From Phoronis australis (taxonomy: Eukaryota; Animalia; Phoronida), in assembly GCA_002633005.1 (NCBI GenBank), contig NMRA01000353.1, forward strand, positions 381,625-445,624: 64,000 nt of DNA. Direction: 5' to 3'. The notes under the pieces are model-generated. The model saw nothing but the letters and a program-made list of their open reading frames with translations. It did not search any database and was not told the DNA's origin. Every line of letters starts with the position of its first letter. The first letter of the stretch is position 1. Both the position numbers and the translations under genes were made by a program. This document shows positions 901 through 63,945 of this stretch, piece by piece.

Positions 901-1794
901 CATACACTTAGGTAAGTAATTGTGAGTAATTTTTCGAGAGTTACGTAAACGCACCTGTTTTTAGGGCCTAAACTTTTCATTTAGGCCAAATGTAACTTTT
1001 TCAGTAAAATACTCTAACATGATTTTAACACCCAATAACGTTTTGTTGAAAAACTCCTGGCACGTAGTATGATAGGTTGTCGAAAGTGGTTCAACGACTG
1101 GAACTGAAACCATAGTAAAGGCCACACAACTTCCGGCATCCACCTAGGACAACAGGTCGGTGCGTATAAAGAATGATCTGTAGGGTTTTGTAGGGTTTTG
1201 ACAAATTTTGACGAAACATCGCTGATTGTATGGAACCGCACCTCAAGAGCCTCACTTGATGAAGAATAATAACAAATTGAAAATGAAGCTATGCAATTAG
1301 GCTAGATTTGATGATTATAAAATGCAACTCCGATCAAAGCTTAATCGAGCAGGCATAGCTGGAATTGGGACCATTCGACGAATTCTTCTCGCGGTGTCGC
1401 TGTTGTACTAGTGGTGATTGAATTGCGCATGTGTCGCTGTCTGCATGTAAACAGCTGGTGCAAAGACGGAATTGTTATCAAAATACGTCGTCGTGCCAAG
1501 CCTCATTATTGCTATTTTCCGGGGTGCAAATCTTCGACAGGTGGTCAAAAAATTTCCAAAAGACCTAAGGTTACTACAGGCATGGAGAATTGCGGTGAAA
1601 GAGTCAACTAAGTGACAAAAGTGTGTGGAGGCCCCATGTGTGCTCTATGCATTTCCATTGAGAGACTACATAATCACGTTACTTGGTAAGTTTTTAGCAA
1701 TTGGTTTCTATCGGCAACGTTCAGTGATGTTATCCCCACCAGTTACCCCACTGAATAACGGGTTTATTCAATGGATGTAAGTCTTTCTTTTCAG

Positions 1795-9070: not shown

Positions 9071-9785
9071 AACTGTCACTGGTAAGCCTGTTAGAAATCA
9101 TTCCAAACAATAATACTGCTTTGATGTACAAAAAGATCCCGAGTGCTACATCAAGTATCGTAACACCCATCACAACAAACATTGTCAACGATTAACCCGA
9201 CTGGCGACTGGCGCGAAGTCGACATCGGCCAATACCTCAGTTAACAGGCATCAGTATTGTAAATATTTAATAATCGTTAAAATAATCACAAACCTTACCT
9301 TTCTCTAAGGTCATGCTTACTTTGTCTCGTAGAGGCACCCTTTTCACGCAATCTCAGATTCAGTTTGCACGACTACAAGCCATTTCACCATGTATTTAAA
9401 GGGCTCACGAAATCGAGGCTGCTTAATCTATCACCACTAGTACACGCGCACCCTCTAGTAATGTTAAGATTGTCAAATAGCATAGCACCATTCACAGTGT
9501 AAACTCTCGCGGCTAGTCTCGGGGTCGCACGCTCTAATAATAGAATACATATGTCACGTGCGTGAGTTGGCATTCCGGAGCGAGAGTTCATGCTCTTAGT
9601 GGAGCCAATATGAAGTATGATGCGAAAGCGGTATCTGAGATGTTCTTCTTCAAGCTAACAATTGCTTGTTGACATGTTTCGTATCAAACTTGGCGGACAT
9701 CTTCAGCATGACGTTTCAAAAACTGCATTCCGACAGACATTGAAATGAAAGCTACGTCACTTGAAGATTGGATGTTCTCTTTCAG

Positions 9786-9896
9786 GAGGATTTCTACATC
9801 CCATATCCTGCTCAGATTTTCAAACACTGTACAACATGGCTGTCGCAAATGCCCGGGAGAGGGAGACCTGACGTAGTCGTTGCTGGGATCGCCGCG
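9786..9896 (+). CDS. CASD1-like gene exon
   Basis: tctctttcag|GAGGAT ... GCCGCG|gtatgg; EDFYIPYPAQIFKHCTTWLSQMPGRGRPDVVVAGIAA. Confidence 0.75.
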
Positions 9897-12800
9897 GTAT
9901 GGTTTTCTGTTTTGTTACAGATGCTGATTTAAAACAGCACGCTGACTATTCAGAAGTGTGTCATGCATAAACGTGATGCTTGATGCATGTGTCCATTGCG
10001 ATAAAAATGCGGTTTTAGGTTTCCATATGTCCGTAAAAAATGATCTGTATATCTATTCTTCAAAACATCATTTAGCGCGCTATTCAAAATAATCACAGCA
10101 GGCAAAGATGTACAGGTTCACACCGAAAGCATGCTGTGAATCCAGTAAATGTGATGCATTGAAGCGTTTACAAATTAATTTTTACTATGAAGAAGACAGC
10201 AATTTTCCATTTTGGGACCGTTTCAAGTATTCTAGGTCACCTAGTGGCCATTTTCATAATTTTACAGGCTGTTTTTGTCGCCTGCCTTTTAATCTGTCGA
10301 ACCACTCTTAGGATCAAATGTGTTCCTGCTGCCAAGAGTACGATTGAAGTTGGTTTTCCAGCGTGAACATGTACTGCAGTGCTGCCTAGTGGCATTATTT
10401 GCATGTAAGGCTGTATTTTCTAAAGCCCTTGTAGGAAATTTTATTTGCAGTGTATTCCTATTAACTTGACAACTATTAGATGGGCAAATTCAACTACCCC
10501 TGTGCCTTCAAGAGGCAATTTGATTTTCTTTACTTTTGCTTCTTTATAGTTAAAGTTCCATGACGGATTTTCATTAAATTTGGGTAAATAGTTTTCTATT
10601 TTCGTTGCTCTTCTATTGCTGCACTTACGAAATGGCCACTGACATCACATTTTTACGAAATTATAACTCAGAACTGATGATAAAACGCAAATGTATGCTG
10701 GAGAACAGCAATCAACACCACATCCGGTGTAGAATGACTTGGAACATATGCGGAGAGATTTGACCAAAATGGCTTTGTCTCCCTTCCTCAGAATGCCATT
10801 TTGTCTATCAGGGCCGTAGGGAGTGAACTCAATATTTTCACGCTGAAAGACATCGGCTATGTCAATGTTACCTTGCTGTCCTACGAGTAACTGGCAACTG
10901 AACAGCGTCTCAACACCATAGATGTCCTTCCCATGACAGGGGCAGGCTTATTCAGCAAATTCGGCAGTTTGACGTTTTCTTAATTGCTTTGTAACATTCA
11001 CTGCCTATTGAAATGAAAAAGGTGACTGCTCTGCTCATGCCCAATGATTAGTTTATTCTGAACAATCAGTAATTACTCGGCATTGCAAATGTTATGGAGA
11101 TATTGCTGCTGGTCATTGAGCGGATGTCTGTGCCTCACTATCTCCTGCACAATATTTATCCAGCCGTCCTCTCCTTCTTTCTTGTGCTTAGTCTTCTCCT
11201 GTCAAACCACTCAATGGCTTCTGCTATTCACCACCTTCATTCTACATGATGTATGTTCTCCAAGGCAGTATCAAGGTGGGCACGCCCATTGATAATATTC
11301 ATCCATACAGCCACTTGCTCGGCTCTCGTTAAAATGCCCTTCGTGATCGAAGAACGTGATCGTTTGATATACGTCTGTTCTTCGAATTGGTCAGCCGGTT
11401 CTGCACTCTTGCCATCCGGGTGTCGACAGCAGTGCGCAACTTTGAGTAGACCTTTCTTGACATTATCGGGATGGTGCTCCATGCACAGTAAACTTAAAAA
11501 TAAACTTCGGAAGAATTCTGACAAAAAAGGTCTACTACTCCGAAAAAAAATGTTGCCATGAAATGTTTTTTACTCGATCTTCATAAATATTCTCAAATTT
11601 CATGACAGGTTTATTAATGTGTTACTTAGTATCAAAAACCCACACAGAAATAAAATTTTGACAATGAAGTCCAATGACTTGTTTCTACCGTTTCTTTCGT
11701 CTTTGTAGTTAACGACTCTTGAATCGTATCTTCTTTGAAGCTCTCTTGACCAGGAGAAAATGAATCATATTAATTTTATAAAATGAAGCAAATGCGTTCA
11801 TATTTGGATGAGGCGTTGGTATCTTCAAAGTAGTGTTTTTTCAGAGAAGTGGGCCTTCGGAGTTGTATTTTTCGGAGTAGTGGGCCTTCGGAGTAGTGGG
11901 CAGTAACCAAACTGGACCCTCCAGTAGCCTAACTGCTGAGCTAATGAGCATTTCCAAGCAAGGTGCTTTCTCTAGTGTGCCGATATAACCCTAATGAAAC
12001 TCATGAGCAAAATGTTTGGCCCACTATAGTATGTAATAATCAGAATTTTGAAAATATATCTTGAAGTGCTTGAAGAAGAAAGTGAAAAATTAATGAGATT
12101 AAAAAGTAAATACCAGAAGGCTGTTAGGCAGTCATGACGTTTGACCTCCGATTTGACCTTGAAAATGACTCCGCATCAATAAAAATCCGAAATGTATCCC
12201 TCATCACAGAAATTGGTATAACCAATGTATTATATGGCCCTGTCAGTCACCAAACCGAAAAAACAAAACGGGCTGAAGTTCAAAATGGCGGCTTCCGCCA
12301 TCTCGAGTTGCAAAAAATGCTCAAGCTAATTTTGTTCTTCTGACCATATTTAACATATTTCAACAACAAAAAAACTTTACAGTGTTCAACCTTGCAGAAT
12401 TCACCGTGGGGGCGATTGGGACGGTAACTAGACTAAAAGGGCTATAATGTTTGAAATGCCCCATCTCTTGTTTGATGCGACTCATTTCATGATCCAAATG
12501 ATGTAGTATAACTAACACCATAGGGACAATTACCTAAATATTTTTTTCGTTTAGTCATCTTAATAATCCCTTGCTTTACATACTAGAGGGTTTCTGTTTT
12601 AGTGGATGATAAGATTTTGGAAGAAGGACAGGCCACGCAGCGAGGCACTCGACCACTACAAACGTACGTATAGTATTACGATAGTAGTAATTTTCAGTAT
12701 GCTTTATGCAGGTTGTTACACGGTAATCAACTAATGCGACTTCATGATAACATAAACAAAAAAGAAATGATAGTGTAAAAGGTAGTAACAGCGCTTTTGA

Positions 12801-15800
12801 GATTTCATCTTGAACATCTACATGTATATCAAACGAAATTTGGTCATGCTATTGAATCTTTTTTTGCTATATTTTGCTGAACTTTACTAAAAGACATGGC
12901 CATACGACCTAATCAATAGCATGAAAATTGCTAAATTCATTGCGAAAGAGTAAATATTTGGTTGAACGCAGACTTGATGAGGTCCTCCATAACCTAAATA
13001 TCTACGTTCCAAGAAATTTGTACAAACTCTAATATTTTAACATTTAGCCACCTAAACAGGGCAAAATGCAAATTTAACTAAATTGGCTAACACGATTAAA
13101 GGCGAAGACAACCTTTTTCCATGTCATTTTGAGCTAAAATAAGGTTGGTTGGTTATCCTAGACATATTTTCCACTTAATTACAGCTTTTTGTACTTTTAT
13201 TAATTACTCGTCCGCTACTGTGGAAGTGACGTTTTAGGCGGCAAGCATTTCGCGCCAATTTCTTTTCATATAGTCTGACTGTGAGAGCTGCCGAGTCAGT
13301 CATTGTTCTACCTCGGTTATGTTAAGTTCCGTCGCCGTTTGCTTTCATTTACTAGTCAGTGAACATGCCACACTGTTGCTGCGTACCGGAATGTACTAAT
13401 TATCGGCTCACGCGCGCTTTGGGAGTGCCTTTGCTTCGCTTTCCGATGATGACACACTTCGCCGTACTTGGTTCGTTCGTGTGAAGAACGCAGCGTTAGC
13501 CGTCCACGCAACGTACAAAGCAGTGGAGAATTACCGTGTGTGTGGCAAGCACTTTCTGCCGTCCGATTACGAAAGGAATTTGTACGCTGAACTGATGAAG
13601 GTCCCTGCGAAACAACGCGGCCTGAAGAAGGATGCCATCCATTCCGTCTGTGTTGAATCCTGGCAGTGCTCCGTCGCCACCCCCGACAAGTGCATTTTTG
13701 AAGCGAGAAGCCTCGCGAGCTGTGGCCAGTACAGTGACTGGAGCCAGTGGAGGCACTTCATCTACTCAGTGTCACCCGTGCCTCCGAACGTACCCCAGAG
13801 CCTGCAATTCCTGGAACCAGTAGTGATTCGCCCTGTGCTGTTTTCTCCAGCCCAGAGCCTCTAAGCAGCCCTGCAGCGATATTGAGTAGTGGGAGTGATT
13901 ACAGGCCCAGTTCGACACCCAGTGAAGAGGACAGTTCGTCGTTCAGTGAACAGATCGGTGAGCCAAACTTTGATAAGTTTATTGTGGACTTGTCTATTTA
14001 GAAGGTGCCAGGTGTGTGGCGAGGGAGTCACACGACACGATGTAAGCAGCTTGGGTGCTCAGGTCACCATCCAGTGGGAGTGTGTCGCGGGACACTCTGG
14101 TAAGTGGGACAGTTGTTCCTCTGTCCGTGGTATGCCGGAGGTCCACTTAACCATGTCCAGTAGTGGCTTGGCCTCGTCGAACTCTGAACAGCACAAGCAT
14201 TGTAAGCATAACAACGCACACAGTGCATTTGCACCAAGATGTGTCACCACGTCTGTCCTCAGTAGCCGCCTCGTTTCTCTCAACAGCTGCGTGTGCCTGT
14301 GCGTACTGTGCCTCGTTATACTTGGGCTCAAACATGTACCCACCCACTGAATGTCCGTGAAAAAATTCCTCGTCACCACTGCTGTGAACAAGGTCTCCGT
14401 CACTCACACTATTGTCACTGTGATACGGGTCACCGACTCCAGCCATTTTCAGCTTACAACACACTAAACAATCCCTAAATCCAACGTAGATGAGTTCTCT
14501 ACTAACCTATCTTGCCGCAGAATACTCGCCGATAGAAAGTGGTGACGACAATTGTTGAAAAACAGCACAAAACAAAAGTAGAATAGAACAGATTCGCACG
14601 GTAAAGTCAACGCAAAACCAAGTGGCGGGAAACGCTTGCCTCCTAAAACGTCACTTCTAGAGTAGCGGACGAGTAATTAATCAAATTACGAAAAGCTGTA
14701 ATTAAGTGGAAAATATGTCTAGGATAACCAACCAACCTTATTTTAGCTCAAAATGACATGGAAAAAGGTTGCCTTCGCCTTTAAGTACGACACTAGCCTA
14801 CTTATAATCGACAAAAATAAAAAACATCGCACTTTTGCATCAAATCGATTGAATGACTTTGATAGTAGAGGTCTACACTCTTCCGCAGTGCTACGAAATG
14901 TAGCACTGTCGAATGTTGTTTAACATGGCTTCTCATTGGTTAAAGTAATGAGACCGACGTCATAGCATTCAGCCATTCCCATTGGTTGAAATCTTAGAAA
15001 CCCATTTCAGTTTACAGTTACCGAGGATGCGGACCACCTTTGGCTTGAATAGTTGCATTTTATTAAAACGGGCAGTGATCGAAGTAAACAAAATCAAGAG
15101 AACTCCGATCCAATGGCTTAAGCCCAAGTACAGTGCATAAAGGCGTATGCAAGTGGAAGCGATGTGATAGGTATACCTCCGGCCAAGGCATACGCATTGA
15201 CGCCCAAAAGCCATGTTACCACAGGACTGCTTTTCAGTATAGGTAGCGCTGTGTCAAGGTATTGGCGAGGAGTGTTCACTCCGCCATCTTGCCATTCGCC
15301 GTAAGGGTTATCGGTCGAAAAACTAGCGCCCCAAGCGGTGAATAAGCAACACTAGTTTAGCGGCGTAGTCCGAACCACGAAAACACTGTTAAATTCATAC
15401 TTTAATGACGTTTGACGTGCAATAAACGTACCGTGTGGTTGAAAATGGGTAAAATACGTAAACTATCACCCACTTATAATTGAAAGAAAAAAATAATGAC
15501 GTGTGTTTTAATCAATATTAAAGTGTATTTGCTTTCATTCTCTTGAAGCTCCCTTCAAAAGCCATCATGGTTTTGTTTCATGTTTGAGTTTTAATAAGGC
15601 AAATTCCCGTTCCTAATTACATTTGATAACTCCATGGACAGCCAAATTTTAGTGATTACTCTTGGGCGTTTAGGAGGCAATTGCCAAAGGTAACAGGAAG
15701 GGGGATACATGGGAAGAGTAAAAGGCAGGTTAAAAACAGGTGGGCACCAAATGGTGTTGAACCCCTCCTAGGGAGTACATGGGAGGAGGGCTAAACAGGT

Positions 15801-18800
15801 AAAAACAGGTGGGCGCCAAATGGGTGTTGACCGCCTCCTACGGGGTACATGGGAGAAGGGCTAAACAGGTAAAAACAGGTGGGCGCCAAATGGGTGTTGA
15901 CCGCCTCCCATGGAGTGCATGGAAGAAGTGCAGAACAGGTAAAAACAAAGGGGTGTGCAGGAGTGTTGAGCACCTCCCATCGTCACACATTTTGGTTGCT
16001 GGATCCCTATGACCATTGACAATATGTACTGAGGTGGTGATAAGATTTCGCTCTCATTTTGTGCATGGCCCCAAAGACATTTTGTAATGACCGGTGTCCA
16101 TGCCCCTGCGGTTATATCAGTACCACCATGGGTATCTTCCAAGTTTTCACTTTTGGTTTCAACTCCACCCAACAATTTCGCATGTGTTCCCTATTAAATA
16201 CACCAGGCTACTAGCAATGCAGACAATTGTTTTGTGCAGTGGGTGTCACAAAAGTATGAAGAAAGCACGGAAATTCATCACTACCACAACATTGTAATCC
16301 ATTCGGATGCACTCTCACATATAATTTTAGAGCGTTCCGTTATTTCTTAGTGCTATGCCAGTACAGTTTAAACTCCCCACTCTTCCACTATAATCACCGA
16401 TAGTTACAAGTCAGTTGCTAATCTGCAGAATAGCTCACAACTTACAAAACGTATTAACATTGAGTAAATCACCACTCATAAGTAGTCAAAGTTGCAAAAT
16501 GCCATGACAAAATGTTTTAAGAGGTACTGAACGGCAATCAAAATATTCACTGCCCACACAACTTACTAGCCTACACTATGCAGACGACAGTGGCATCGGC
16601 CCGATGCGGGACTGCGATCGGCTTGTCTTCAACCGTGAATGCAAACAAGACGGATGCAGTGAACGGTCATCATTTTGAAGCGGTTAACCAAAAACGTCTG
16701 ATTTCGACTATTACCAAACTGGTCGCAAGTTGGTTAATTCATTTGCATGAGGTCGCTTCCTTTCCCCAGTTTCCCGCGGTCGCTAATGACAAAGGCTTCC
16801 TAACAATAGCTCCAGAATGAGCCAGCCAACCGCAGAAATCGCTCGTGCGGTATTAGATACATATATAACCATTTAGGCATCTATTTAAAATTTTTAGTTC
16901 CATATTACTAAATCTTCATTAAAATCGATCATATGCAGTTTTCGGAGGCAAAAATTGATGCACAACTTGCCGAGAAACAAATAACTTGTGACCATTTAGC
17001 ATTTAGGAATTAATACGGCTTGTTCAAGGACAGTGAGTTAAGCTACTCACAAGTCTTAGATAAGGCTAAGAACTGCTTTCTAATTAGTTGGCGGATGAAA
17101 TGTTTATCTAATGAAATATTAAAAAATGTACATGTTATTAGGCCCTGCCTTTTCATTGTCGGGAAGTCTTGAATTTAGAGAGCTAAAATACGGTCTCGGA
17201 TATGAAAGCTGTCTTTTTGTAAAACGTTTTAATACCATGACTTCCGGGTGTAACTCAATCTCTCATAAGGGTACTTTGCTGTGGAACTCATTGCCACCGA
17301 CAATGAGACAAGGTACTGCCTTAAATGAATTAGCCACACTTGATGATGATTTTCTCTGTGAACTGCTGTTGTGAGAACTGTTACAGATGTCTTCACACCC
17401 GACACGTACTTTTGTATTTATGTTATTAAAGTTCTGTATTTTATCTGTAGGCCTACTGCATGATTAGCTTGTAGTTTCAGTTGTAGATTTTAAAATTGTC
17501 AGATAATAGACCTTGTGCTAATGTTTCATTATTAAACCTCACCGACTTTTAAACAATGATGATTACTAGGCCTACATATTACTACTACTACTATGCGATC
17601 ATCGGAGATTAGAGCAATTATCGAACAAAAGAGAGCTGACCCTCAATCCAAGATTGCCAGCATGGACTGATCACTCGTGTAAGATACCGGCTACAGCGGT
17701 CATCCGCCCAAGTTGTTGTGCCATACAATCGAACAAGTTCAGGACTCAACGGGAGAACGCCGTAATGCGCTAAAAAACCAAGTGCTTCCAGAAACAAAAC
17801 CACTCTGAAATTGCCGGGTTAGTTTAATCTAAACAGCTATTTTGATATCAGTTTGTTTAAAGGCTCTTATCAAATTTTACTGGCTTAAAAGGACGCAATC
17901 GGTTGTAGGTCAGAAATCCAGGCGGCGACTTGCATGTATTGGTTGTTTCACTGTTAGGCGCCGTGAAAATGGCCGACGCGGGTGAAGTTAGTTGTCCTCA
18001 GAGCGAGTCGCCATAAGAAAGCCTACGGACCTCTTGTGTGCTTTCTAGAGTTCACTCTACTTTTAATCGACGAGATTTTCACATACTTTTTTGCAACTAT
18101 TTTTAATGGTGTTTTGAATGATAATCCAAGACTTTACAATTTTTAGAACATTAAAATATGTTTTTTTTTCTTCTAAAAAGTGCTCTAAACCTGCCCTTTT
18201 TATGCTCCCACACATTTATATGCGGGCGCATTATGCGTCCGCCCCTCTATCAAACTAACGACTCTGAGGATGATTGTGAAAATTGACATACTGGGTATAA
18301 GATGTCTATGGTTCTTACCTTGGAAGAGGACGGCTCACGATGATTTTCCGACGACTTTGGCTACTGTGGTGTCTCCTAGTGGCAGTTTTCTTGCTCCCAT
18401 GGCTTTATCTCTTTGACCCTCTGCAGGATCTTTCAGATGGATCTGATGAACGTTCTGCCCCCTAGTTTCAATTTCATTTTTTTCCTCTGTTTCGCTGAAG
18501 TTCCTTGAGGGAATGCTATGAAATTTGGCAAATAGCTGTGTATTAAATAAACGGTAACATGCTTGGTTTTAGGATGGATTTGACATGTTTTGCGACATTT
18601 AGTGGCCATTTTTTGCTGATTTCTAGTCTGTTTTTGGCGTTCGCCCCTCTATCAAACAAGCCACTCTAACGATGATTTGAAAATTGGTGTTTATGTTTCC
18701 ACTGTGAAAAGGACGGCTGTGACGACTTCTAGTGGCATTTTTTGCATCCATGCCTATATCTCCCAAACCCTCAGCAGGATCTTTGGCAACTGTATTAACA

Positions 18801-21800
18801 TGAAGTTAACAATGGACAACGATCAGGTTTGGATGGACCCGACAGCTGTGTTTTGGAATAGATTGGACGGACAGTGGCTGTTTTTATTTTTTGAAATTTT
18901 ACAAATAGGTTTCTATTTAGGAGACGATTACGCGCTCCCATTTTCAGGCGGATTTCTCGTATTCTGTACCAGTCGGTTGTCATTTTAAAGGTTTTTGAGA
19001 GCGTTTTTGACATCGCCCTCTCCATCCACTGGAGTGGTGCTAGAGACCAGTGCTAAGTTGTATGAAACAGTCTCAAACAGGAACTCAACGAAGCTCATTT
19101 TATCTTTAGTGTGAGGTCCTCCTTTACAGACATGCACAAGTAGGTACTAACCCGTTAAATTAGGAGCGTTGCATAAAACGTTCTGCATTTATTTTCAGTA
19201 ATGTAAAGAGTTTGAGCAACGTATAGCTTACTCTTGGAATATATCAAGTGGCGGATTAAGCAAATGCGGGGCCCGTAGCATAAGTCGAACCGCGGTGCCC
19301 CTACTCAAGTACTCATATAGTTATCTGAAAGCAAAACCAAGATAGGTGCAACTTTGACTTTTGAGATGGAAAACAATTGAGACAGCTTCTATACGAAAAA
19401 TAAATAGTATATTGTCACAAGAGGCACACATCACCGGACTTGTCGCCTTTCTTCCACAATGCTATAGTGCCCAGTATAGGGGTGGTCATTTTTAAGAAAA
19501 GTGTATCTACAGCCGAAATAGCGAACATCCCCAATATGTCCACAAATACAAGCAAACCAGGCCACCGAACCTAATGTAATGCCTACCTCAAATTCCCGCC
19601 AAACCTGGTCTTCCCCGAATGTTCAATTTCTTGTCAGTGCACATTGACCGCAGCTACAGTCTTACGGTACAGTACCACCTTCATGAATGATATCTGATCG
19701 TGATTTCAATCCTTGGCGTCAGGAAAACCAATTGCTGACTTTCGAAATAAGCGTGCCACATTAAAACGCACTATCCCGCCTGACGGTGATATGGGTAGGA
19801 GTTCAGTAGCTGTCTCGTGGCTGCAAAGTCTAGCCAAATTGGCATGTTCTTATTTAAAATACGCAATATTTCGCGCAGTTTTGCGAAGTCTTGCTTTTCT
19901 AGCCAGGTTCTAGCGTTATTGAACTCTACCCAAATCTTTCGTGGACAGACGTTCAGCCGCCACCTAGAGATCCCATGTAATGCTGACGGTAGGTTTCACT
20001 GAACCTAGTCGGGCTGAAATAAACAGGGTTTGATTGCGGAAAATTTCCACTGATGTGCGGTGGGGCAAACTTCTTGAAGTATCCATGGATGAAATGAACC
20101 ATCTTCCATACATTTCCCACTACCAAGAACATTTCGTGTCCTGCGAGGTCTCATTAATTGGGAGAATTTCGGTCCCAGTCGATGTCAAAAAGTTAAGATA
20201 AATAATGAACTTAACCTAACTAAGTAATGGTAGGGACTGAAAGTGGCAATTGTTCCTCTGTTTTTAGATTAAAGAACTGCTCTGTAATAATTGAATTTCT
20301 GTTCAACAAATCTGAGTTGTCTGGATCAAACGGAAGTCGCTTTCGCGCTCTCATTACTCTAGAGAGCGCAATATGAAGAGTTTGCTATAGAAAAGATTTT
20401 TTCATGTCCAGAGTGCTTTTCATTGATATTTTGGCGTTATGGAATTGGTTTCAAATTGTTCCTTGATAAAATTGAAGATGATTTCAAGTCTTCGAAAGAA
20501 CTGACAGTTCATAGCTGCTGGAGGTTACGCGCTACCCTCTGTTACAGCGCCATTCATATTAAAAAGTGGCCCTGTGAAAACATGATGAACGAACAAAGTA
20601 TACCGATCTCATCGCCATAACTTGCACACGCCTTTATGCACTGTACGTAACAGAAAAGTGAGAGGGCCGGGGTTCCCAGATTTCAACCAATAGGAATGAC
20701 TGAATGTTATGACGTCTGTTTCGTTACTTTAATTAATGAGAAGCCATGTTAAACAAAATTCGACAACCTTCGTAGCACTGTGAAAGAGTGTAGGTTTTGC
20801 GATACAAGTTGGCTGGTCACGGCGTGTCATTTTATGCACCAAGCATGATCTCAACGGATAACAAACTGCCATTTTCATAGATATCTATATACCGGGCACG
20901 CAGGACTAAACCATGGAGTGCAATCAGATGTCTATTGCTAGTTCTTTGCAAACTCAGACAAATCAATTCTCATCTGAGTAGGGAACACGTCCTTGGACGA
21001 TTATAAATGGTCTAAATATAAACTTATCTTCTTGGAAGGAAAGCGGGTTTATAGTCATTTTTAATTTCATGAAGAAACACCAAGGAACTTGAAATGTTCT
21101 GCGGCAGACGCAAAAATGTCCCTGAAGAGGCGCTATAGTAGTTGGATCTGTACAACTATCCGTGCTCTCCCCAACAAGCTCGCACCACGAAACTTCTATT
21201 ACATGATAGATCAGAAGCAGAGTGGAATTGGACATTGCCATGCGGGGGAGGCCACAGTAGTTGGAACTGGACGGAAGTCAACGTGAGTTGTGCTCTCCTC
21301 CGTAGGAAAGCACCTGCCACATTTTATTTTGATTCTTCAACAAGCGGTTTGGAGGAGACAAAGACAGATACAAAAATATAATAAAAAGGCAACTACATGT
21401 AGGGGTGCTGCTCTGTGTCATATCCGTCTAAGACGGGGTGAAAACCATCGTTTCCTTAATGGAAACTCATTTACAAAATTGACCATCTAATTTGCATAAA
21501 CAAAATGGCGGCCAAATTGTCGAGTTCAGATGTATTTTTATGCGCCCACATATTTATATGTGGACGCATTATGCCGTCATCTCTGTCCGTCCGTCCGTCC
21601 GTCCGTCCGTCCGTCCGTCCGGGCGGCGTCCGTCCGGCGTCCGGCGTCCGGCGTCCGCTGCTCTATCTCCAAAACCCTTTGACATACGTTCATGAAATTT
21701 GGCACATATGTTCCATTCATGAATGGGACGGCATGTGCGAACTTTCGGACGGATCCGACTACCGGTGTGCCCCCTAGTGGCAATTTTAGTTTTTTACGCT

Positions 21801-24800
21801 TACCTTTGTATCTTCAAAAGTCCTGAACGGATTTTCATGAAATTTGGTATGTAGGCACCTANNNNNNNNNNNNNNNNNNNNNNNNNNNNNNNNNNNNNNN
21901 NNNNNNNNNNNNNNNNNNNNNNNNNNNNNNNNNNNNNNNNNNNNNNNNNNNNNNNNNNNNNNNNNNNNNNNNNNNNNNNNNNNNNNNNNNNNNNNNNNNN
22001 NNNNNNNNNNNNNNNNNNNNNNNNNNNNNNNNNNNNNNNNNNNNNNNNNNNNNNNNNNNNNNNNNNNNNNNNNNNNNNNNNNNNNNNNNNNNNNNNNNNN
22101 NNNNNNNNNNNNNNNNNNNNNNNNNNNNNNNNNNNNNNNNNNNNNNNNNNNNNNNNNNNNNNNNNNNNNNNNNNNNNNNNNNNNNNNNNNNNNNNNNNNN
22201 NNNNNNNNNNNNNNNNNNNCCATACCTTGACCTGATAGTGCACTCTCATCAGATGGAAACGGCGGGCATTATGGGTGAGGGGGAAGGACTTCTGGGTTCA
22301 CTGGGTTGGAGAATAGTAAATGGCGTGCTACATCTACAGGTAGTGTTGTATATTCTGCAGACAAATACTTCTGAAGCCATCGTAATTTGCTCAGTGATTT
22401 CACCAATGCAGGGGTTCTTAAGCAATCTGTGATGCTCTAGGAACACCTTCCATGATGATTGTTTCATGTGATTGGCAAAGTACGAGTTGGTGCCAAATCC
22501 GGTCACGGCATGAAAAGCAAAAAAGGATGTTGCTGAGTCTCTTAGTAGTTTGTTGAAAAGTGCTTCAATATGTGTATATCGTCATTTCTTTGATGTGCCT
22601 GACATCATACAGATATGCTCACTTTGCATTTGTTGGAAGTGCGATACCAGAAGCAATAGAACATCGGGTGTCTCTGGAAATACGACTGACTGTGGACAGC
22701 ATGCAGTACCAGTCTTGCATCTGCTTCTTCATGTGTGGATTTCAGAGTCCTCAAATCAATCATAACGTTAGATGATTTAATTTACTTCCAGCTCATCTTT
22801 GAACCCTCATGCAACCATAAACTCTTTAACTTTAGGCGTCTACAAACACAGTTGCTCTGACAAGAAATGTGCTAGGTCTTCTTTATTCTCAGCCGGTGCC
22901 CGAAAATTTGACCAGTTTTGAGGAAGAGGTACACCACGGCCTTCCAAAAATCACCTGATTTTCTGTATTCCTTTACTACGCTGTTTTCCTGTTGTGTATT
23001 TCATAGTTTCTTGTCTGTATCTGTCAAATACAATGTCAATTTTATGATATCGAAATCCTGTGTTTAGCACTGTTTTCATGAATGAATCAGCCAGGTTCTC
23101 GAAGGTCACATCACCATCAAGCTTCCCAAGAGCTACCAGCAATGCTTCGCCATCAAAAATGAGGCAAGCGGGCGAGCCATGAAGTTGAATTCTTTTAGGA
23201 CAGTCGATGCGTTAACTATAAATACTTCGGCAAGTGAAGATTTATCTCCAGTGCGCAATGTGTCACTCGTTTATGTAAGAAAACATGGACGGGAAGAAGC
23301 TCGCGTTTGAGCACAGACGGCAAATCAACTGGCCGACCCACCTCATAAGCCGTAGCTAGGCAGCGAAGTATATCTCTCTCTGCCTTAAGAACTATTTTCT
23401 TGTCTTTATCTGTGTCTTTGGATTGTTTCACCACATCATGTAAGTTGGCAAATGTTGGGGCATTATTTTTGCGCATAGGCGCGTGAATTGACATGTCTGA
23501 ATTATCGCATTGCTCAGTGATAATCGGTCTCTAACAAATTTCTTAGTTTGTTCGTGTCCAAGTTCCTTGGCATGTAAAAGTGACTCTTGGATTAGTGCGT
23601 TACTAGGTCTTTTGTTGCAAGGCTTTGTAGCAGCTAAGGCCTTGCGGACGAGAAGACCTTCAATCCATGGAATGCGTAAAGAAGGGACTCCCAACAGTTG
23701 CCTCGTGTATTCGTTATGAAACTATGTACTCCCACAGCAGTAAGTTTGTTGAGCTATATGAGATTTCAGATTAAATGAGAGTGTCCACCTCCATAGAGCT
23801 GACGAGGTTTTGGTATTACCGGTGATACCACCTCCTTTTTGCCTGCCCCATTTACCCATTGGTCAGAATCTACCTGACAGAGCATATGAGGAGATCACTT
23901 GACTACAAAATTTCCTGCTTGAAAATCTGACCAAACAGACTGTGGAAGCTGATGTATCTCCGCTAAAAAGACCTAACCCCACTCGGGCATAATTCGGTGA
24001 GGCAGCACGAGAGTAAATGAAGAGAGATGCAGTTCCAATATACCATCCCATTGAGAGCATTGTGTACTTTAACAATATTGGAACCATGTACATGTAACTC
24101 CACCAGAAGCTGAAATTCACATCATCAGAACTACTGTTGACAAAATGCCCAGGAGTTCCTGAACTTATCCTAATTGAGAAATGTTAAAAACTCTGGAATT
24201 TTCTGTGGATCATCATCTGCAGACATACTGGTAATACAAGCATGACAGTCGCTTCTGCAATAAACGAGAGAAGGCTTGACACATGCAGGAGATGCCACAG
24301 AGCTTGCAAAGACAGTTTGTGTGCCCTCATACTGTAGCTTTGCTGGATGACATTCCACTGAGGACCAGTTCCATAGGTCTTGACCAAGTACTGCACTCTC
24401 TATACACACCTCAGCTATTCCGGAATCACTCATGTGATCTTCTATGGCCTTGATAAAGTTCAATGATAGTGAAGAACCACTAATGAGGTACTGTATTAAC
24501 ATATTTTGGTATTCTGGGACCGACCACGTATAAGCTCCATTAATCTGCAGCAGAGTGCTTGGTCGACTGTGAGGACGGTATGTTCCTGTCCAAAATGGGA
24601 CAATATGGCCATGCATCTCTTTACAACAGTATTTAAAAGTCATGTTGTTATGTTTACAATACTTTTATGTCTTATCTAAATAGTGAGATGTTCACAAAAA
24701 GCATTGATAATTATGATTTCTAATTTAATTTTCAGACTTTATTAATGAGCATTTGTAACTTAGTGAAGATGAAATAAAAAGCTTCACATGTGTCATAATG

Positions 24801-27800
24801 ATTTTTCTAGACCTTCAAAACATAGATATAGACACCTTAGTTGTCATGTTTGCCTGCAAATTGATAAAGTTACACCGAATTTTTTGGTAATGGTGGAAGC
24901 TAATTAGCATAATTGGGGAATTTAATGACGTTCATTAATATGCTCTTAAATTTAAGTGATCTAAACACACTTATATTATGTTTTTGAAGCAAAAATTTCC
25001 TAATTATTTGTCACATATTGTACTCCTGATCTTACGAATATTTCTTATCTTGTTGGTTTGGCGGCCATTTTGTTTATGCAAATTAGATGGTCAAAAACTC
25101 AAAATCCAGCTTGGGAACAGGCATAATCGAAATCAGCATACCATAATTATGCTAAAAAGATAGGTTCTTCACTTTTACTAAAAAATGCCTCTAACATGCA
25201 CATTTTCCAGAAATGCGTCTAGACTAGAACACCAACTAAGGAACTAGGTAGATACTGAGGCAAAGGAACGCAAAAAGGACCAAAGTTGCCTCTAGGGGAT
25301 TCCACAGGAGTCACATTCATAACTTTTTGGACGGCTCTGACTAACGCTGTGCCCCGGCCCTATAGTGGCAATTTTTTGTTTCTATGTATGCGTTTGTATC
25401 TCTGGAGTTCCTTAGTAGATTTTCATGAATGAAGACAAAAGTTTTGTAATAGAGAGACGAACCCCCCATGGAAAGCAGTGTGAACTGATGGGGCTACCCT
25501 CATTGTAAATATTACATTAATAAATAAATAAAGCCTTTCCAAAATTTCGAAACGGTTTAAACGTATTTTCCGCCATGTAATGACCATTTCTATGATAGTA
25601 AAAAACACCCCTCAAGCACACCAATTGCAAAGCAGTAGTGGGTATATTTCAACGATCCGCGTTGCTCTTGTAATATTAAGTTGCAGCACTATCGACTTCT
25701 GCTACTTTGTAGATAGTCTCCACTGAATCTGGAGAGCAAAACTTGAGGTTTAACGATGAAACTCAACGATATAGTGTGATAGCAAAGCAAAACAACTCTG
25801 GCATATTTAATGAAATAATGAAAAAAATAAATAAATTTCGTCGCAAGACTGCATAATTATTTGTGTAACAAGCTCACAATGCGAATCCTATCTGATGCAA
25901 AACATGACAACGCCTGTCGCTGTACGTTCTGAGCATGCCCTAATGCGCTTGTCTGTGTACATGTTTATAAGGTAAGCTTAGTGAAGTGTCATCCAATCTG
26001 GGAAGCGTGAAACGATATGTCCCGGTTTTGAAATTAGTTAATTTTGCTAGTAGGTGAACCAGTTTCCAAAAGATGTGTACTGTGATGGAGATATTCTAAT
26101 AAACCACGTGATGACACCACCATTAATCTAACCCATACCCTTCCCGTGTCATAAATCGTCATCTGTCCAAACACCCTCCCCCTCAAGTGATGATGTAATA
26201 TGTGAACTTTCGCATATCTGTAGGATATACACAGGACCATCTTTTCCCATGTTTGAAAAAACTTGCCTCCAACGGTACTCGTGTTATCTGGAAACTGCAG
26301 GACCCAGTAGTAGACAACAGAATGGGTCCAGATCCAAACAGGCAGTTGTTGAAGAATGAAAATTTCGACGCTTGGAACAACGCCACAATAGAAATAATGT
26401 GAGTCGTTTGATAATAGTGTTCAGCCGTTTCTTGAATCACCACTTCAGTAAACAAGCTGGTTCGTAGGCATAAGAAGGGTCGTTTGAATAAGACTAATAA
26501 GCAAAATGTACTATCATCGGGCTTGTGTGCGGAGGAAAAAAAAAGATTCACCGAGGGTCGATCGACAATCTGCGTATTTGGCGCGTTCGTAGCCTTCTGG
26601 AAAATTTGCGGCACCACATGAGAGTACTTTATTTCAGTCAAATTTTCTGAGTCAAATGAATGTCAAATCAGTCTACAGTAAAACTACCGCAATTACTTTA
26701 ATTATGACAACTAACACTCGTATTTGTAATAGAATTTGTCCTCTACAGGAAAGACAGTAATGTGGAGCTGTGGTACACTGGTCGACTGTCGGCATACAAA
26801 TGGCTCGATGATCTTAAGGACGGAGTTCACTACCGGGGGAGGAGCAGTGCTCAAGACCAGGTGACATTTCATTTCCCTGAACGGTAATGGCCAGTGCTGT
26901 AGAGGGGGCTAGGTGCACGTAGGCGTAGCCAACCACCTTATGGCATTTGAACGTAACGCCTACGCACCTTAAGTTACGTTCAGTGCTCAAGGTGATACGA
27001 TGGGCTTTGGGCGCCTACTTACCTCTTATTTTACCACTACAGCACTGGTGATGGCTACAGCGGGACTACTGGAAGTTTGAAGTTGCCAGAAAGAATATTG
27101 TTGCTATAGCTACAAGGAAGTCCATAGAACTAGTGTACAATCAATTGCTTTTGAAGGCCTGCACCCAAATAAGATTTCTCGTGAGGCTGGTGTTATTGTT
27201 TAGGGCTGGTCCGTTTTGCGACTGGGGCTGAACATTAATTCAATTAGTAAAGATAACACAAAGGATGTCGGCAAACACTGATAGTGAAGCCTCCCAAAGT
27301 CATGCCCACGACCCTCGCGATAAAATCCGTTCAAATATGCTTATGAGCCTACCGTCAGTCACTATTAATTTTTTTGTTGTTTGCAGGGTTTCACAAAATT
27401 AACAGAGTAAGCAGTAAGCGAATGTCAGTCGGAAACAACTTAAGACTTATTTAAAGATGCAGATGCATTTCGCCGTTAAGCTGGCTAAAATCGAAAATCG
27501 AATTAGCCCTTTACTCTCATCAAATCAGTGTCCTTACTGTGTTAGGATTCTGTTTCGGTTACTTACTCAAGTCACATGCAGTGCGTGCATTGTACACGCG
27601 CCATTTTCGAATTCGCAAACTTTAGGATTGACCAACAATTCTGAGACGCTGATGGTGTCAAGAATCTTGTTTGTAATGGAAATAGAATCCTAGAGGTAAT
27701 TGCGAGACCAATTATATGACAATAAAAGACCCAGTTCGATTTTCGTTTTTAACCTGCTTAACAACCAAGCAAACCAAAATGCAAATTTATTTCACAGCCA

Positions 27801-29660
27801 CTTAGACATTTTACATTCAAAACTAGGAAAACACTCCTCAGTACCTAGTTTGTTATTAATCTCTCGTTTATTGACCATGTGCCATTTCTGAAAATAGCTC
27901 CCATTGGCACTGCACATGGATGTGGCCGTTTGGCACATCACGCAGGTTTTTCACTGTACAACTGAAGGGATAGTAAGTTCCGGCAAATGTAGTTAGGGCA
28001 CACCGGACATAGTTACCGTTGTGAAGTCCCCTAAGCGTAAAGCAAACATGGCCGCCGGAAGTTTCCTGCATACGCCCTATAACTGTTTTTTTTCAATGTG
28101 TTCTCAATCACCTTTCACGAAAGTTGCTGGCAATGAGCCATACAATCCGCAATCACAGTGGCCTGATGGATAAATAAAACTGCATTTTTCCAGTATTTGG
28201 TTGCCAGAAAAACGAAAATAAGATTAAGACAGTTGAGCACACAAAATCAGTTTCATAATAGCCATTACCATGGTGGAACATGATTTCCGTTAACAACAAA
28301 TACATCGATGCCAACTGGAACTCAAGAAATGATTGGGCTCGGCCAAACCTAAAATTGTGCATTTGAAATTAGTGCCTACTACAAATTTTGACCTCAAACC
28401 GCGTTCTCTAAGAATTCAGCTTTGACATCTAAACAGCGGCGAAGTGTCCCTTCCAATGTTACACACAGCGGCAGGCCTATATCCACGATTTTCAGGTTTT
28501 GAGCTCATTTCCATATATTTAAAAAAAACATTCACATCAACTAAGCTTCGTTCACGGAGATGTCAGATCGATTCAAACGGCTAGGTATAACTCAGTGTGG
28601 CAATGCATGTTAGCGACTAATATGGTAGTTTGCGATATGACATCAAGTTTATTTGATAGACATTGATGATCTGGGAATAAGAATTAATTTACGGGTTTTG
28701 CAAGCGAGGTACCTTTTCGTGAGTCACATTTATTCCAGGTATGTTGACCGTTAACTTAATTCGTCTCAAGTACTACGGCAACATCTGGCTTACGTTAGGA
28801 AGATGAATTTATTTCACTTTATTTTTGGCTAATTGTTTCTTCTGGGCGCATTTCCACGGGCTTATTTTCAGCAGATCATGAAGTCTGCCACACGCTTCTA
28901 CACCCCGCACGCAATTCTCCTTTTTAGTTCCCAGAAAATCATTGAAGCTCATCGAAAAAAAACATCTTTCGAATTTTGTTAGTGCAACGAGGGCCAAGAC
29001 GTTGGACAATCGGAGCGTCTGCATTTTCCGCGCCCTTGTTGGTTGATATAATTGGATTGATTGGCAAGACCTGACTATCCAGAGAACGTATGCACACATT
29101 GTTGCTTCATGGCTGCAGTTTGTGCTGGGTCGTTACTGTAGGGGGCGGAGCTTGCGATAGGTCAAATGCACAAATTATCACAGAACCGACAGAAACGATC
29201 GCGATTGCGCTATGGCACCAGCTGCGTCACGGGACACGGCCAGCGGGTCTACAGCATTCATGCGAGCTATACTATGTGTCAGACTGGTCAACAGACTGTG
29301 TAGCCACGGGCTACAGGACAGGACCATGTCCTTCCGCTGCAGAAACCCCTCATTTCAATTTTACTTTTGGCAACTCCTTGCAAAGTGCGCTGGCCCAGAC
29401 TAATACTTATTTCATCACCAGCTCTTCGCCAACGGTCACCAACAATTTCACGTGTGCTCCCCCTACCTCCTGTTAACCACTTCTGGCTACGCAAGTGCAT
29501 CGTTATACGTGTGTAGCATAATGCGAAGATAGACCTGACATTGTTATATTTACAGGCAGTACAGATATTCTACAACAATTTCTGCAACATATATATGGAA
29601 GATTTGCAACCCGATCACTGTTGCTGGTTCGAACGTTTGGAACTAATAGATACACACTAA
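9786..29660 (+). CDS. CASD1-like SGNH/PC-esterase domain protein (sialate O-acetyltransferase-like), 5'-partial, lacking the Cas1 acyltransferase membrane domain
   Basis: Exons 9786-9896, 12603-12663, 26224-26398, 26749-26860 and 29556-29660 join in frame (intron phases 0,1,2,0) to 187 aa: ...RPDVVVAGIAA|WMIRF..SEALDHYK|R..LKKLASNGTRVIWKLQDPV..NENFDAWNNATIEI|MKDSNVELW..LKDGVHY..|AVQIFYNNFCN..DHCC..stop. This is colinear with the CASD1 luminal domain as I recall it (PHVIVAGAATW, SEALSQYK, VYWVLQDPV, NEKIDAYN, DGLH, NVYCN, SCC). Confidence 0.85.
10630..12435 (-). mobile_element. Academ transposon remnant
   Basis: Terminus TAGTCTAGTTACC at 12435; fragment HPD..CRHPDG..PADQFEEQTYIK..KGILT..QVAVW resembles Academ transposase; left boundary approximate. 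Confidence 0.7.
11530..11909. mobile_element. MITE with short subterminal repeats (Mutator-like) inserted in the Academ remnant
   Basis: CTACTACTCCGAA at the left versus repeated (C)TTCGGAGTAGTGGG ending GGCAGTAACC at the right. Confidence 0.5.
12603..12663 (+). CDS. CASD1-like gene exon
   Basis: ttctgttttag|TGGATG ... TACAAAC|gtacgt; WMIRFWKKDRPRSEALDHYK. Confidence 0.8.
13100..14780 (+). mobile_element. Kolobok DNA transposon, internally deleted (THAP-transposase and convergent KolX remnants)
   Basis: TTAA TSD (13096-13099, 14781-14784); AGG..CCT termini; near-identical TIRs of about 158 bp; THAP MPHCCCVPECTN..RVCGKHF from 13365 (+); CQVCG..WECVAGH..W transposase piece; minus-strand GYMFEP..RRGDTSWCKCTVC from 14446. 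Confidence 0.9.
14872..15003. repeat. Dispersed repeat; inverted copy at about 20670-20794
   Basis: TTAACATGGCTTCTCATT..GACGTCATA.CATTCAG.CATTCC.ATTGGTTGAAATCT shared in opposite orientation. Confidence 0.75.
15700..15975. repeat. Purine-rich minisatellite, unit about 70 bp, about 4 copies
   Basis: GTACATGGGAG.AGGGCTAAACAGGTAAAAACAGGTGGGCGCCAAATGGGTGTTGA unit. Confidence 0.9.
17200..17592 (+). mobile_element. CR1/L2-group LINE 3' remnant
   Basis: NTMTSGCNSISHKGTLLWNSLP motif; (ACT)n tail. Confidence 0.55.
18196..19020 (+). mobile_element. Degenerate HINE copy
   Basis: TTTTTATGCTCCCACACATTTATATGCGGGCGCAT end plus CTAGTGGC-containing monomers. Confidence 0.65.
21533..21861 (+). mobile_element. 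Second, near-identical HINE copy (inverted relative to the first), running into an assembly gap
   Basis: Reverse complement of about 3563-3865; palindrome 21540-21569; (GTCC)n. Confidence 0.85.
22220..25226 (-). mobile_element. Academ transposon remnant (transposase/XPG-like nuclease pseudogene)
   Basis: Terminus TAGTCTAGACG at 25226. Fragments KIDIVFDRY, FAFHAVTGFGTNSYF..SSWKVF, FSFWWSYMYMVPILL..NYAR. The other end is lost at the gap. Confidence 0.85.
25462..25532 (+). repeat. Retroposon 3' tail; second copy at 45412-45480
   Basis: CCCCAyGGAAAGCAGTrTGAACTGrTGGGsCTACCCTCATTGTAAAyATTACATTAATAAATAA in both copies. Confidence 0.75.
26224..26398 (+). CDS. CASD1-like gene exon
   Basis: tctgtag|GATAT ... 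ATAAT|gtgagt; YTQDHLFPCLKKLASNGTRVIWKLQDPVVDNRMGPDPNRQLLKNENFDAWNNATIEI. Confidence 0.88.
26749..26860 (+). CDS. CASD1-like gene exon (catalytic DxxH)
   Basis: ctctacag|GAAAG ... GACCAG|gtgaca; KDSNVELWYTGRLSAYKWLDDLKDGVHYRGRSSAQDQ. Confidence 0.88.
26892..27047. mobile_element. hAT MITE, 8-bp TSD
   Basis: GTAATGGC|CAGTGCTGTAG ... CTACAGCACTG|GTGATGGC. Confidence 0.8.
29556..29660 (+). CDS. CASD1-like gene terminal coding exon
   Basis: atttacag|GCAGTA ... TAA; AVQIFYNNFCNIYMEDLQPDHCCWFERLELIDTH*; candidate AATAAA at 30177-30182. Confidence 0.85.
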   Translation, partial: AVQIFYNNFCNIYMEDLQPDHCCWFERLELIDTH

Positions 29661-31047
29661 AGGCGGACCAAAACAACCGTGAATGCCTGATCGACAGCGT
29701 TGCGATTAATACAAGTAACTAGTAACCGACCGTCACCATGGAGACAGCCAGATGGGACATAAATCTCCATCGTTTGGGAGCCAGATCAGTTCCGACACAA
29801 AAGTCTGGCCATTGCCTCGTATCTTCACAAAAACTCTCAACTGCACGTTAATTCCTTATCTCTGTGATTACTTGGTTAAATTAGTTAGAAACAACATATG
29901 GGCGACGATGTGAATATGAAAATTGCCAAATGTTTTTAAGAACGAGTTTTGTGTCAAAATGATCCATGGTAAATCACTCAACCGTGTCCAGTAAGTATCG
30001 TGGTGTGGTGTTGGAGAATAACACTACACGATGCGGGTTATGTGAGTCACCAAGCAGGGGCAAAACTAATACTTTTGCTTGGGGGGGGGTGTCAAACATA
30101 ATTTGCCCTACATTTTGGTACGCCTACCCTACAACTTTTCTGATGGCCAAGATGAAGCAGACAGCTTTATCATAACAATAAATCAACGAATAACGACAAT
30201 GGCTTTTATAGTAATTTACCAGTCTACATCTACCTTCAGTGTAAGGTGTTTCAGTGACACCATCTTGTTTGAGTTTCCTTGATTAGCTCAGTCAAAAACA
30301 TTCCCAGTATTTTGATGTTCATCGTTTCCCTAATGAAACAAGGCACAATTTTTATTCAGGTCTCGACATAATGAGCGTTTGCGACCAGAAATTTGGAAAT
30401 GCGAGCTGAGATTTTAGCAAGCTCGTATCAATAACAAATGGCAAAATGCGACCTGGAACATCCAACCATTGCGAGCTCGGAATTTTTACACTTCTCGGCA
30501 GATACCTAGCAAAGACAAAGCAACTCGTATGAATCCAACTGTTATTTGGTTGTTGTCAAATCAATCCAATTCAGAAGAACACTAACCGAGAACAGCCCTC
30601 CTGGTGACTTGTAAGCATGTTACGTGAACGTGGGATAATGCAGAATCGATCTTTGACACGTTTCATTACCTAACATTTTCGGCTACTTTTGCAAACGAGC
30701 AACTTGCTAAACTTCGTGGTGGAAAAACATATCTGTTCTTCACGTAAGATGTACTTACTACCAAATATCCACGACAATATCACTGATATCACACTGCTAG
30801 CGGCACTGGCTGGTACCGTTGTTAGCGCGCAAGCGGTCCCGGCAGACGATCGTGACTTGGAAATGTGCGTCTCGTTTATATCGCGAAAGACAGCTAACGT
30901 AAAAATGACAAGTCTATTAATCACCAAACGATGGCCACGTCATTAATTTCAGCAAAGTAGTTTTTGAGTCGCCAAAAAATTCCCAGACGCTTTACTTTTT
31001 TCTGGGGCTGCGTGCGCGACATATCGAATCGTCTGTCCATATTGTTG

Positions 31048-42799: not shown

Positions 42800-42821
42800 G
42801 GTTCGATTGCTATTGCCACCA

Positions 42822-48409: not shown

Positions 48410-63945
<15,536 letters not shown>

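What the first reader, a model, noticed from the sequence alone, without database searches (positions are those of the whole stretch)
9786..29660. Hidden 20-kb gene for a stand-alone CASD1-type SGNH domain without the membrane acyltransferase half
Seen: five small GT-AG exons, spread across transposon-filled introns of up to 13.5 kb, splice into one 187-aa frame with no stops. The frame keeps DGVH and the terminal N.FCN..CC, then stops 11 residues after CC. Known: CASD1 couples a luminal SGNH domain (GDS..DxxH triad) to a multi-pass Cas1_AcylT domain for sialic acid O-acetylation; plant TBL/RWA proteins split the same two functions across separate genes. Inference: this may be a split, soluble or singly anchored glycan O-acetyltransferase or esterase paralog in an invertebrate, working with a separate acetyl donor transporter or acting as a de-O-acetylase. 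The GDS exon was not found and probably lies upstream of the window.
Basis: partly seen in the sequence, partly recalled or inferred. Interest (0 to 1): 0.8.

Follow-up and report, generated by a model that had tools for sequence, protein, structure and literature searches.

The report
CASD1 copy lacking its membrane half
This spliced, weakly expressed animal gene encodes the back part of the sugar-acetylating domain of CASD1 and stops just before the membrane half; it is likely a stand-alone glycan acetyltransferase of a design already catalogued in other invertebrates, but the exon with its catalytic serine was not found, so it may be a dead copy.

Summary
Five GT-AG exons (9786-29660) give one 187-codon frame that matches the CASD1 luminal (PC-esterase/SGNH) domain at E 2.5e-21 and shares CASD1 intron positions. 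RNA reads confirm the last two of four junctions, and sense-strand coverage runs on past the TAA. No Cas1_AcylT exon is detectable in the 34 kb downstream, where a taxilin gene converges. So the stand-alone 3' end is real. It is a diverged paralog (26-31% identity; orthologues share 34-47%). New complication: a homolog of the CASD1 'WQP' exon lies upstream at 1580-1685 with no open frame, and no GDS exists between it and the first exon. The 5' half is therefore either outside the window, misassembled or dead. The design is not new: stand-alone Cas1p-subfamily PC-esterases were listed in Capitella and Daphnia in 2010 (PMC2824669), and NXPE1 is a proven stand-alone animal O-acetyltransferase. 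Likely mechanism: Ser-His-Asp acetyl transfer fed by SLC33A1-type luminal acetyl-CoA. The scan had not noted this gene before; one bacterial analogue exists. Interest 0.3.

The parts
1580..1685 (+). Disrupted homolog of the CASD1 'WQP' exon: phase-1 acceptor, GxxxC start, WxPxxCxMH motif in a different frame, GTAAGT donor; no frame is open across it. May be a decayed duplicate, this gene's own broken exon, or an assembly error
   Evidence: Best of 6396 tiles in the window: 10.5 bits, 12.6 bits against 6.9 for the next non-overlapping tile; 1 of 200 Markov resamples reached 10.5; acceptor position and cysteine spacing as in L002 and L003. Not tested with RNA
9786..9896 (+). Exon 1 of the model (111 nt, phase 0/0), ends in the PDVVVAG strand
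   Evidence: its start matches an exon-skip boundary seen in 5 of 121 stored CASD1 proteins. No RNA test
12603..12663 (+). Exon 2 (61 nt, phase 0/1); first codon is the conserved PC-esterase tryptophan
   Evidence: weakest splice scores of the set; junctions not among the rows shown
13096..14784 (.). DNA-transposon-like element in intron 2 with 171-nt terminal inverted repeats and a THAP-domain frame
   Evidence: heavy read cover from diverged copies
26224..26398 (+). Exon 3 (175 nt, phase 1/2), WxLQDPV motif
   Evidence: hits a CASD1 at E 1.6e-6 among 1.84 billion representatives; junction 26398-26749 in 3 reads of X3
26749..26860 (+). Exon 4 (112 nt, phase 2/0) with DGVH (26819-26830), the Asp and His of the triad
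   Evidence: both junctions read in RNA
29556..29660 (+). Coding part of the terminal exon: NxxCN, CC, TAA at 29658-29660, just before the place of CASD1's first C-terminal membrane helix
   Evidence: junction into 29556 in 2 reads of X2 and 3 of X3; no good donor before the stop
29661..29830 (+). 3' untranslated stretch covered by sense-strand reads; the true end is not mapped (nearest AATAAA at 30177)
   Evidence: depth 3.09 (X2) and 4.31 (X3) in bin 29652-29775, 1.33 (X3) in bin 29776-29870

Best explanation
This is a spliced, weakly expressed, diverged copy of CASD1 whose message ends before the membrane acyltransferase half, and it likely encodes a stand-alone secretory-pathway glycan O-acetyltransferase whose serine-bearing exons are predicted to lie upstream of the window or to be missing from the assembly. 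Shown: homology, exon structure, two junctions, coverage past the stop, DxxH, no detectable Cas1_AcylT exon. Inferred: origin by a partial duplication of CASD1; an N-terminal anchor or signal as in CASD1 and NXPE1; a Ser-His-Asp ping-pong transfer through an acetyl-serine intermediate; luminal acetyl-CoA supplied by an SLC33A1-type carrier, so no RWA-like partner is needed. The acceptor glycan is unknown and need not be sialic acid. The piece at 1580-1685 is read as a decayed duplicate exon inside a long intron, or as an assembly error.
For: Profile match E 2.5e-21, shuffles at most 3.2 bits. Intron positions match CASD1 boundaries. Junction reads 26398-26749 and into 29556, and sense coverage past TAA with no joint or listed loose end in the last exon. 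No donor scoring above -1.2 before the stop. No membrane-like stretch after the stop: best 19-residue hydropathy 0.55-1.06 against 2.34 and 2.97 in CASD1. Best Cas1_AcylT tile on the + strand downstream 5.1 bits, E 2.5, while 19 of 25 pieces of an invertebrate CASD1 membrane half score E < 0.001. Convergent taxilin exons from 63381 down to at least 57736. Zero lesions in 564 nt, with Asp, His, Trp and three terminal cysteines kept at 26-31% identity, implies long selection. Isolated CASD1 luminal domain transfers acetyl from acetyl-CoA and has no esterase activity on pNP-acetate (PMC4510713). SLC33A1 feeds that domain (PMC13043746).
Against: No GDS and no start or signal exon found. The disrupted exon homolog at 1580-1685 is collinear with the gene and no GDS lies in 1686-9785. 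Only a handful of reads: none on the exons in X1, none on the 5' half of exon 3 in any of three runs; junctions 1 and 2 unconfirmed; 3 loose-end rows were not shown. The power test used an orthologue; exons 1, 4 and 5 themselves score at chance level singly, so a very diverged membrane half could be missed. No stand-alone close relative was retrieved. SLC33A1 and a full-length CASD1 in this genome could not be checked.
Confidence: 0.42

Rival explanations
1. A 5'-broken, still transcribed pseudogene or catalytically dead fragment: the piece at 1580-1685 is the gene's own 'WQP' exon, the GDS exon has been deleted or has decayed, and no active enzyme is made.
For: The upstream piece is a significant homolog in the right order and strand, with no open frame. 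No GDS among the 15 G[DN] dipeptides on the + strand in 1686-9785. Expression is very low and fades toward the 5' end.
Against: At least 2 frame breaks in 106 nt against none in 564 nt; under even decay both would fall in the 106 nt about 2.5% of the time (my arithmetic). Asp, His, Trp, cysteines and 8 splice sites are intact. Both breaks lie at 3-base homopolymer runs and the exon length keeps the CASD1 phase class, so an assembly error is possible. Intron 2 is 13.5 kb, so a further intron over 9.8 kb is unremarkable.
Confidence: 0.3
2. An intact stand-alone enzyme that works as a de-O-acetylase, for example on microbial or own surface glycans, rather than as a transferase.
For: Same fold and triad. 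PMC2824669 proposed esterase roles for the invertebrate expansions. A plant TBL member is described as an acetylesterase (PMC11043868, search listing only).
Against: The closest tested relatives are transferases: the CASD1 luminal domain showed no esterase activity, and NXPE1 acetylates sialic acid.
Confidence: 0.16
3. The last exon is an alternative early ending of a longer gene whose Cas1_AcylT exons lie further on, are too diverged to see, or are used in other tissues.
For: Only three RNA samples of one study and about a fifth of each run were read. Introns here are long. Sensitivity for short diverged exons is low.
Against: The last exon is the homolog of the constitutive NxxCN..CC exon, not a novel one; it has the stop in frame, no usable donor and no membrane-helix remnant. 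A convergent taxilin gene occupies the far end of the window.
Confidence: 0.07

Closest known systems
CASD1 / Cas1p (luminal PC-esterase domain plus Cas1_AcylT, PF07779)
   Same: Closest relative in every search that hit; DxxH, the Trp after the PDVV strand, WxLQDPV, NxxCN and CC; shared intron positions.
   Different: Stops before the first C-terminal membrane helix; 26-31% identity where arthropod-vertebrate orthologues share 34-46%; GDS exon not found.
Stand-alone Cas1p-subfamily PC-esterases of Capitella and Daphnia (Anantharaman and Aravind 2010, PMC2824669; main text parts 1-3 of 4, supplement parts 1, 5, 6 of 48)
   Same: [quoted passage not shown]
   Different: This gene still shows CASD1 intron positions and terminal motifs plainly.
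NXPE1 family (PF24536 NXPE4_C)
   Same: Animal single-pass PC-esterase with GDS and DxxH that O-acetylates sialic acid without a Cas1_AcylT domain (PMC12216134, bioRxiv 10.64898/2026.05.20.726592; passages read).
   Different: NXPE proteins carry an N-terminal neurexophilin/Ig domain and are a separate subfamily; no NXPE hit arose in any search here, though direct comparison was not possible.
Plant TBL/XOAT1 (PF13839) with RWA
   Same: SGNH-like transferase encoded apart from the membrane protein; RWA are membrane-half-only proteins (PMC13043746).
   Different: Only a low Atlas lead (score 0.79, PF13839 on 55% of members); no RWA-like partner shown here.

Membership tests
PC-esterase (GDSL/SGNH-like, PMC2824669) | Catalytic Ser in an N-terminal GDS motif | tested here: inconclusive
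   No GDS on the + strand upstream of exon 1 within the window; sequence left of the window is not held
PC-esterase (GDSL/SGNH-like, PMC2824669) | DxxH before the last helix | tested here: met
   DGVH at 26819 aligns with CASD1 DGLH; exon read in RNA
PC-esterase (GDSL/SGNH-like, PMC2824669) | Trp or His in place of the SGNH Asn, no GxND motif | tested here: met
   Trp at the start of exon 2 aligns with the conserved CASD1 Trp after the GAAT turn; that this is the family's W/H column is my reading of the paper's text, figure not seen
PC-esterase (GDSL/SGNH-like, PMC2824669) | N-terminal signal peptide or anchor | not testable with these tools
   5' exons not in hand; no hydrophobic stretch in the 187 residues (best 0.68)
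PC-esterase (GDSL/SGNH-like, PMC2824669) | Cysteines at both ends of the domain | tested here: inconclusive
   C-terminal C163, C175, C176 present; N-terminal cysteines seen only in the disrupted piece at 1580-1685
PC-esterase (GDSL/SGNH-like, PMC2824669) | Pfam PF13839 or PF24536 match | tested here: inconclusive
   0 of 5 single exons hit Pfam; the spliced product was not scanned; in CASD1 itself PF24536 matches only residues 64-134, the part missing here
CASD1 / Cas1p proper | C-terminal Cas1_AcylT multi-pass domain (PF07779) in the same protein | tested here: not met
   In-frame TAA with coverage beyond it; no matching exon in the window
CASD1 / Cas1p proper | CASD1-type luminal domain sequence and intron positions | tested here: met
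   E 2.5e-21; boundaries match
CASD1 / Cas1p proper | Acetyl transfer from acetyl-CoA to CMP-sialic acid or another glycan | not testable with these tools
   Needs an enzyme assay
NXPE | N-terminal neurexophilin/Ig domain and NXPE-type sequence | not tested
   No NXPE sequence was fetched; 5' end unknown; all significant hits were CASD1

The most novel reading that the evidence does not exclude
CASD1's two catalytic halves evolve as separable enzymes in animals: this gene is an intact, independently truncated luminal-domain-only paralog running on SLC33A1-imported acetyl-CoA, and the full-length CASD1s of loci L001 and L003, which have lost the Ser or the DxxH but keep the membrane half, are the mirror case. 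Together they would be natural single-site variants for testing the 2026 two-active-site model and for finding the non-sialic acceptor of invertebrate CASD1.
Probability: 0.35. Interest if true: 0.5.

Novelty: new member of a known kind. Interest (0 to 1): 0.3.

Why it matters
If the 5' half is intact, the gene is a natural version of the soluble CASD1 construct used in vitro, and supports the view that the luminal domain needs no membrane half when acetyl-CoA is imported. It would also be a handle on which invertebrate glycans are O-acetylated. The architecture itself is on record since 2010 for annelid and crustacean paralogs and is proven in NXPE1, so a specialist would find it plausible rather than surprising. 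If the 5' half is dead, it is an ordinary truncated gene duplicate.

Tried and rejected
No whole genome is held, so paralog counts, a full-length CASD1, SLC33A1 and the upstream GDS exon could not be searched. Single exons gave no Pfam hit (0 of 5) and no PDB hit of value; an invertebrate CASD1 also had none. Exon 3 found nothing among longer proteins in the 5.8-billion set; the two-row alignment found 2 proteins, one full-length CASD1 and one single-exon fragment; the metagenome scan gave 3 loci, all full-length CASD1. These searches are word-limited, so the lack of stand-alone relatives is weak evidence. Both Atlas calls gave only leads under 0.9. No RNA holder was listed by index. The first read lay was swamped by transposon reads and showed none of the gene's junctions among its listed rows; its depth in the exon 3 bin came from a nearby repeat, as one search showed, and was not used. 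A strong acceptor at 4313 followed by loose CASD1-like letters was considered as a decayed GDS exon and rejected: no profile score. A CC-bearing + strand segment at 33722 scored at chance level (E about 2). No duplicate of any of the five exons was found in the window. No structure or complex prediction was run, because the product is spliced. Literature: CASD1+paralog+invertebrate 0 papers, CASD1+mollusc 0, CASD1+gene duplication 3 unrelated by listing; one search found the 2010 paper that lowers the novelty.

Full report
Observation. Reading the window and enumerating candidate exons recovered five + strand exons: 9786-9896, 12603-12663, 26224-26398, 26749-26860 and 29556-29660. They sum to 564 nt, 187 codons and a TAA, with four GT..AG introns of 2706, 13,560, 350 and 2695 nt. 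DGVH, NxxCN and CC are present, and the stop is 11 residues after CC.

Homology. Exon 3 alone found 2 proteins among 1.84 billion representatives; the best is a sturgeon CASD1 with PF07779. It was used to collect 120 listed of 235 CASD1 hits. The spliced model scores 61.7 bits (E 2.5e-21) against a profile of the 79 full-length ones and covers CASD1 residues about 157-303; the best of 500 shuffles scored 3.2 bits. Identity to 7 vertebrate and 4 invertebrate CASD1 proteins is 26-31%, while the invertebrate and vertebrate proteins share 34-46% with each other over the same stretch. The gene is therefore likely a fast-diverged paralog, not this animal's CASD1 orthologue; the orthologue could not be looked for.

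Gene structure is inherited from CASD1. Among 121 stored CASD1 proteins, exon-skip-like gaps end or start at the place of the exon 1 start in 5 and at the exon 4/5 junction in 8. The chimeric sturgeon model has a joint at the exon 1/2 position (read by eye), and two single-exon fragments lose similarity at the exon 3/4 position.

RNA. Three RNA-seq runs with the same species label, one study, were laid, about a fifth of each. Junction 26398-26749 was read 3 times in X3, and the junction into 29556 twice in X2 and 3 times in X3. Sense-strand depth is 3.4 and 2.6 in bin 29528-29651, 3.09 and 4.31 in bin 29652-29775, and 0 and 1.33 in bin 29776-29870 for X2 and X3. No joint, indel or changed letter was listed in the exons, and no listed loose end lies in the last exon (3 rows not shown). 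X1 has no exon reads, and no run covers the 5' half of exon 3. Junctions 1 and 2 are unconfirmed: one search spanned junction 2 but its tables were filled by transposon reads, and junction 1 was never laid.

No membrane half. The stop falls just before the place of CASD1's first C-terminal helix, which starts 12 residues after CC in two references; the three frames after the stop have no hydrophobic stretch. No donor before the stop scores above -1.2, against 0.8-3.7 for the four real donors. A Cas1_AcylT profile found nothing above chance in 6396 tiles (best 5.4 bits, E 2), whereas 19 of 25 pieces of an ostracod CASD1 membrane half score E < 0.001. That test overstates the power for a diverged paralog, since exons 1, 4 and 5 are not detectable singly. 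Downstream lie a Gypsy-type element (about 38-43 kb) and a convergent taxilin gene on the minus strand.

The 5' end is the open problem. No GDS occurs on the + strand before exon 1. But the best tile in the window for the CASD1 N-terminal profile lies at 1580-1685 on the + strand: 10.5 bits, reached by 1 of 200 resamples of the upstream 9.8 kb, and 12.6 bits against 6.9 for the next tile once invertebrate rows are added. It has the acceptor phase and GxxxC start of the matching exon in L002 and L003, a WxPxxCxMH motif and a GTAAGT donor, but start and motif are in different frames and all three frames contain stops. Both shifts lie at 3-base homopolymer runs. If this is the gene's own exon, the GDS exon should lie in 1686-9785, and it does not. 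Three readings remain: a decayed duplicate exon inside a long intron with intact 5' exons outside the window, an assembly fault, or a 5'-dead gene. The contrast of at least 2 breaks in 106 nt with none in 564 nt favours continued selection on the five exons (inference). No read lay was left to test it.

Mechanism. [quoted passage not shown] SLC33A1 supplies acetyl-CoA to that domain, and the membrane half is a second, independent active site (PMC13043746; abstract, passages and Discussion). An earlier structural paper proposed delivery through the membrane domain instead (PMC12423673, passages). NXPE1 shows that an animal PC-esterase without the multi-pass half acetylates sialic acid (PMC12216134, passages; bioRxiv 10.64898/2026.05.20.726592, passages, supplements closed). 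I therefore infer a singly anchored or secreted O-acetyltransferase fed by a luminal acetyl-CoA carrier (0.42), ahead of a 5'-broken copy (0.30), an esterase (0.16) and an early ending of a longer gene (0.07). The acceptor is unknown. Another agent's unchecked note calls the genome likely molluscan; I did not test that.

Comparison and novelty. Anantharaman and Aravind 2010 (PMC2824669; main text parts 1-3 of 4) state that the Cas1p subfamily expanded independently in Capitella and Daphnia. Their supplement (parts 1, 5 and 6 of 48 and two term searches) lists 37 Capitella and 18 Daphnia proteins with the PC-esterase domain and no multi-pass half, beside full-length CASD1 in the same animals and in Lottia. 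The architecture is thus known in invertebrates, though untested biochemically as far as my searches reach. Whether this gene descends from those expansions or is an independent truncation is untested. It fails membership in CASD1 proper (no PF07779 half), and its PC-esterase membership lacks the serine test. My protein and contig searches retrieved no stand-alone relative, which is weak evidence given their word filters.

Verdict. Real, spliced, weakly expressed gene; stand-alone 3' end supported by RNA; catalytic integrity unresolved; new member of a known kind; interest 0.3.

Noticed in passing
L001:2092-3681 and L003:629-2446: Full-length arthropod-like CASD1 genes whose luminal triad looks lost (GDE with DGML in L001; GDA with DELR in L003) while the membrane half is kept; L002 keeps both motifs. 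Mirror image of the finding and in line with the two-site model.
   Followed up: partly
window 63381-57736, minus strand (possibly down to about 48400): Taxilin gene (PF09728, E 1.6e-7) convergent with the finding; coiled-coil exons near 63381, 61148, 58316 and 57867.
   Followed up: partly
window about 38080-42961, minus strand: Gypsy-type LTR retrotransposon with reverse transcriptase, RNase H and integrase matches, split over several frames.
   Followed up: no
window 13096-14784: 1.7-kb element with 171-nt terminal inverted repeats and a THAP frame; related copies are transcribed on both strands at depth above 100 in all three raw-read runs.
   Followed up: no
window about 2200-3865 and 21535-21861: Repeat with a 450-nt period upstream and an inverted 99% copy beside the N gap in intron 2; reads of this family reach depth 480-700 on one strand. 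A possible site of assembly collapse between the disrupted exon and exon 1.
   Followed up: no
window 4270-4480: Strong 3' splice-site-like sequence at 4313 followed by a 53-codon open stretch of unknown identity; no CASD1 profile score.
   Followed up: partly
window 9783-9788: The exon 1 acceptor is a tandem NAGNAG site, so the exon may start one codon later, which would match the CASD1 boundary exactly.
   Followed up: no
window about 22250-24660, minus strand: Several 100-160 codon frames that look like a broken transposase, no Pfam hit; covered by strand-biased reads of diverged copies in X1 and X2 but hardly in X3.
   Followed up: no
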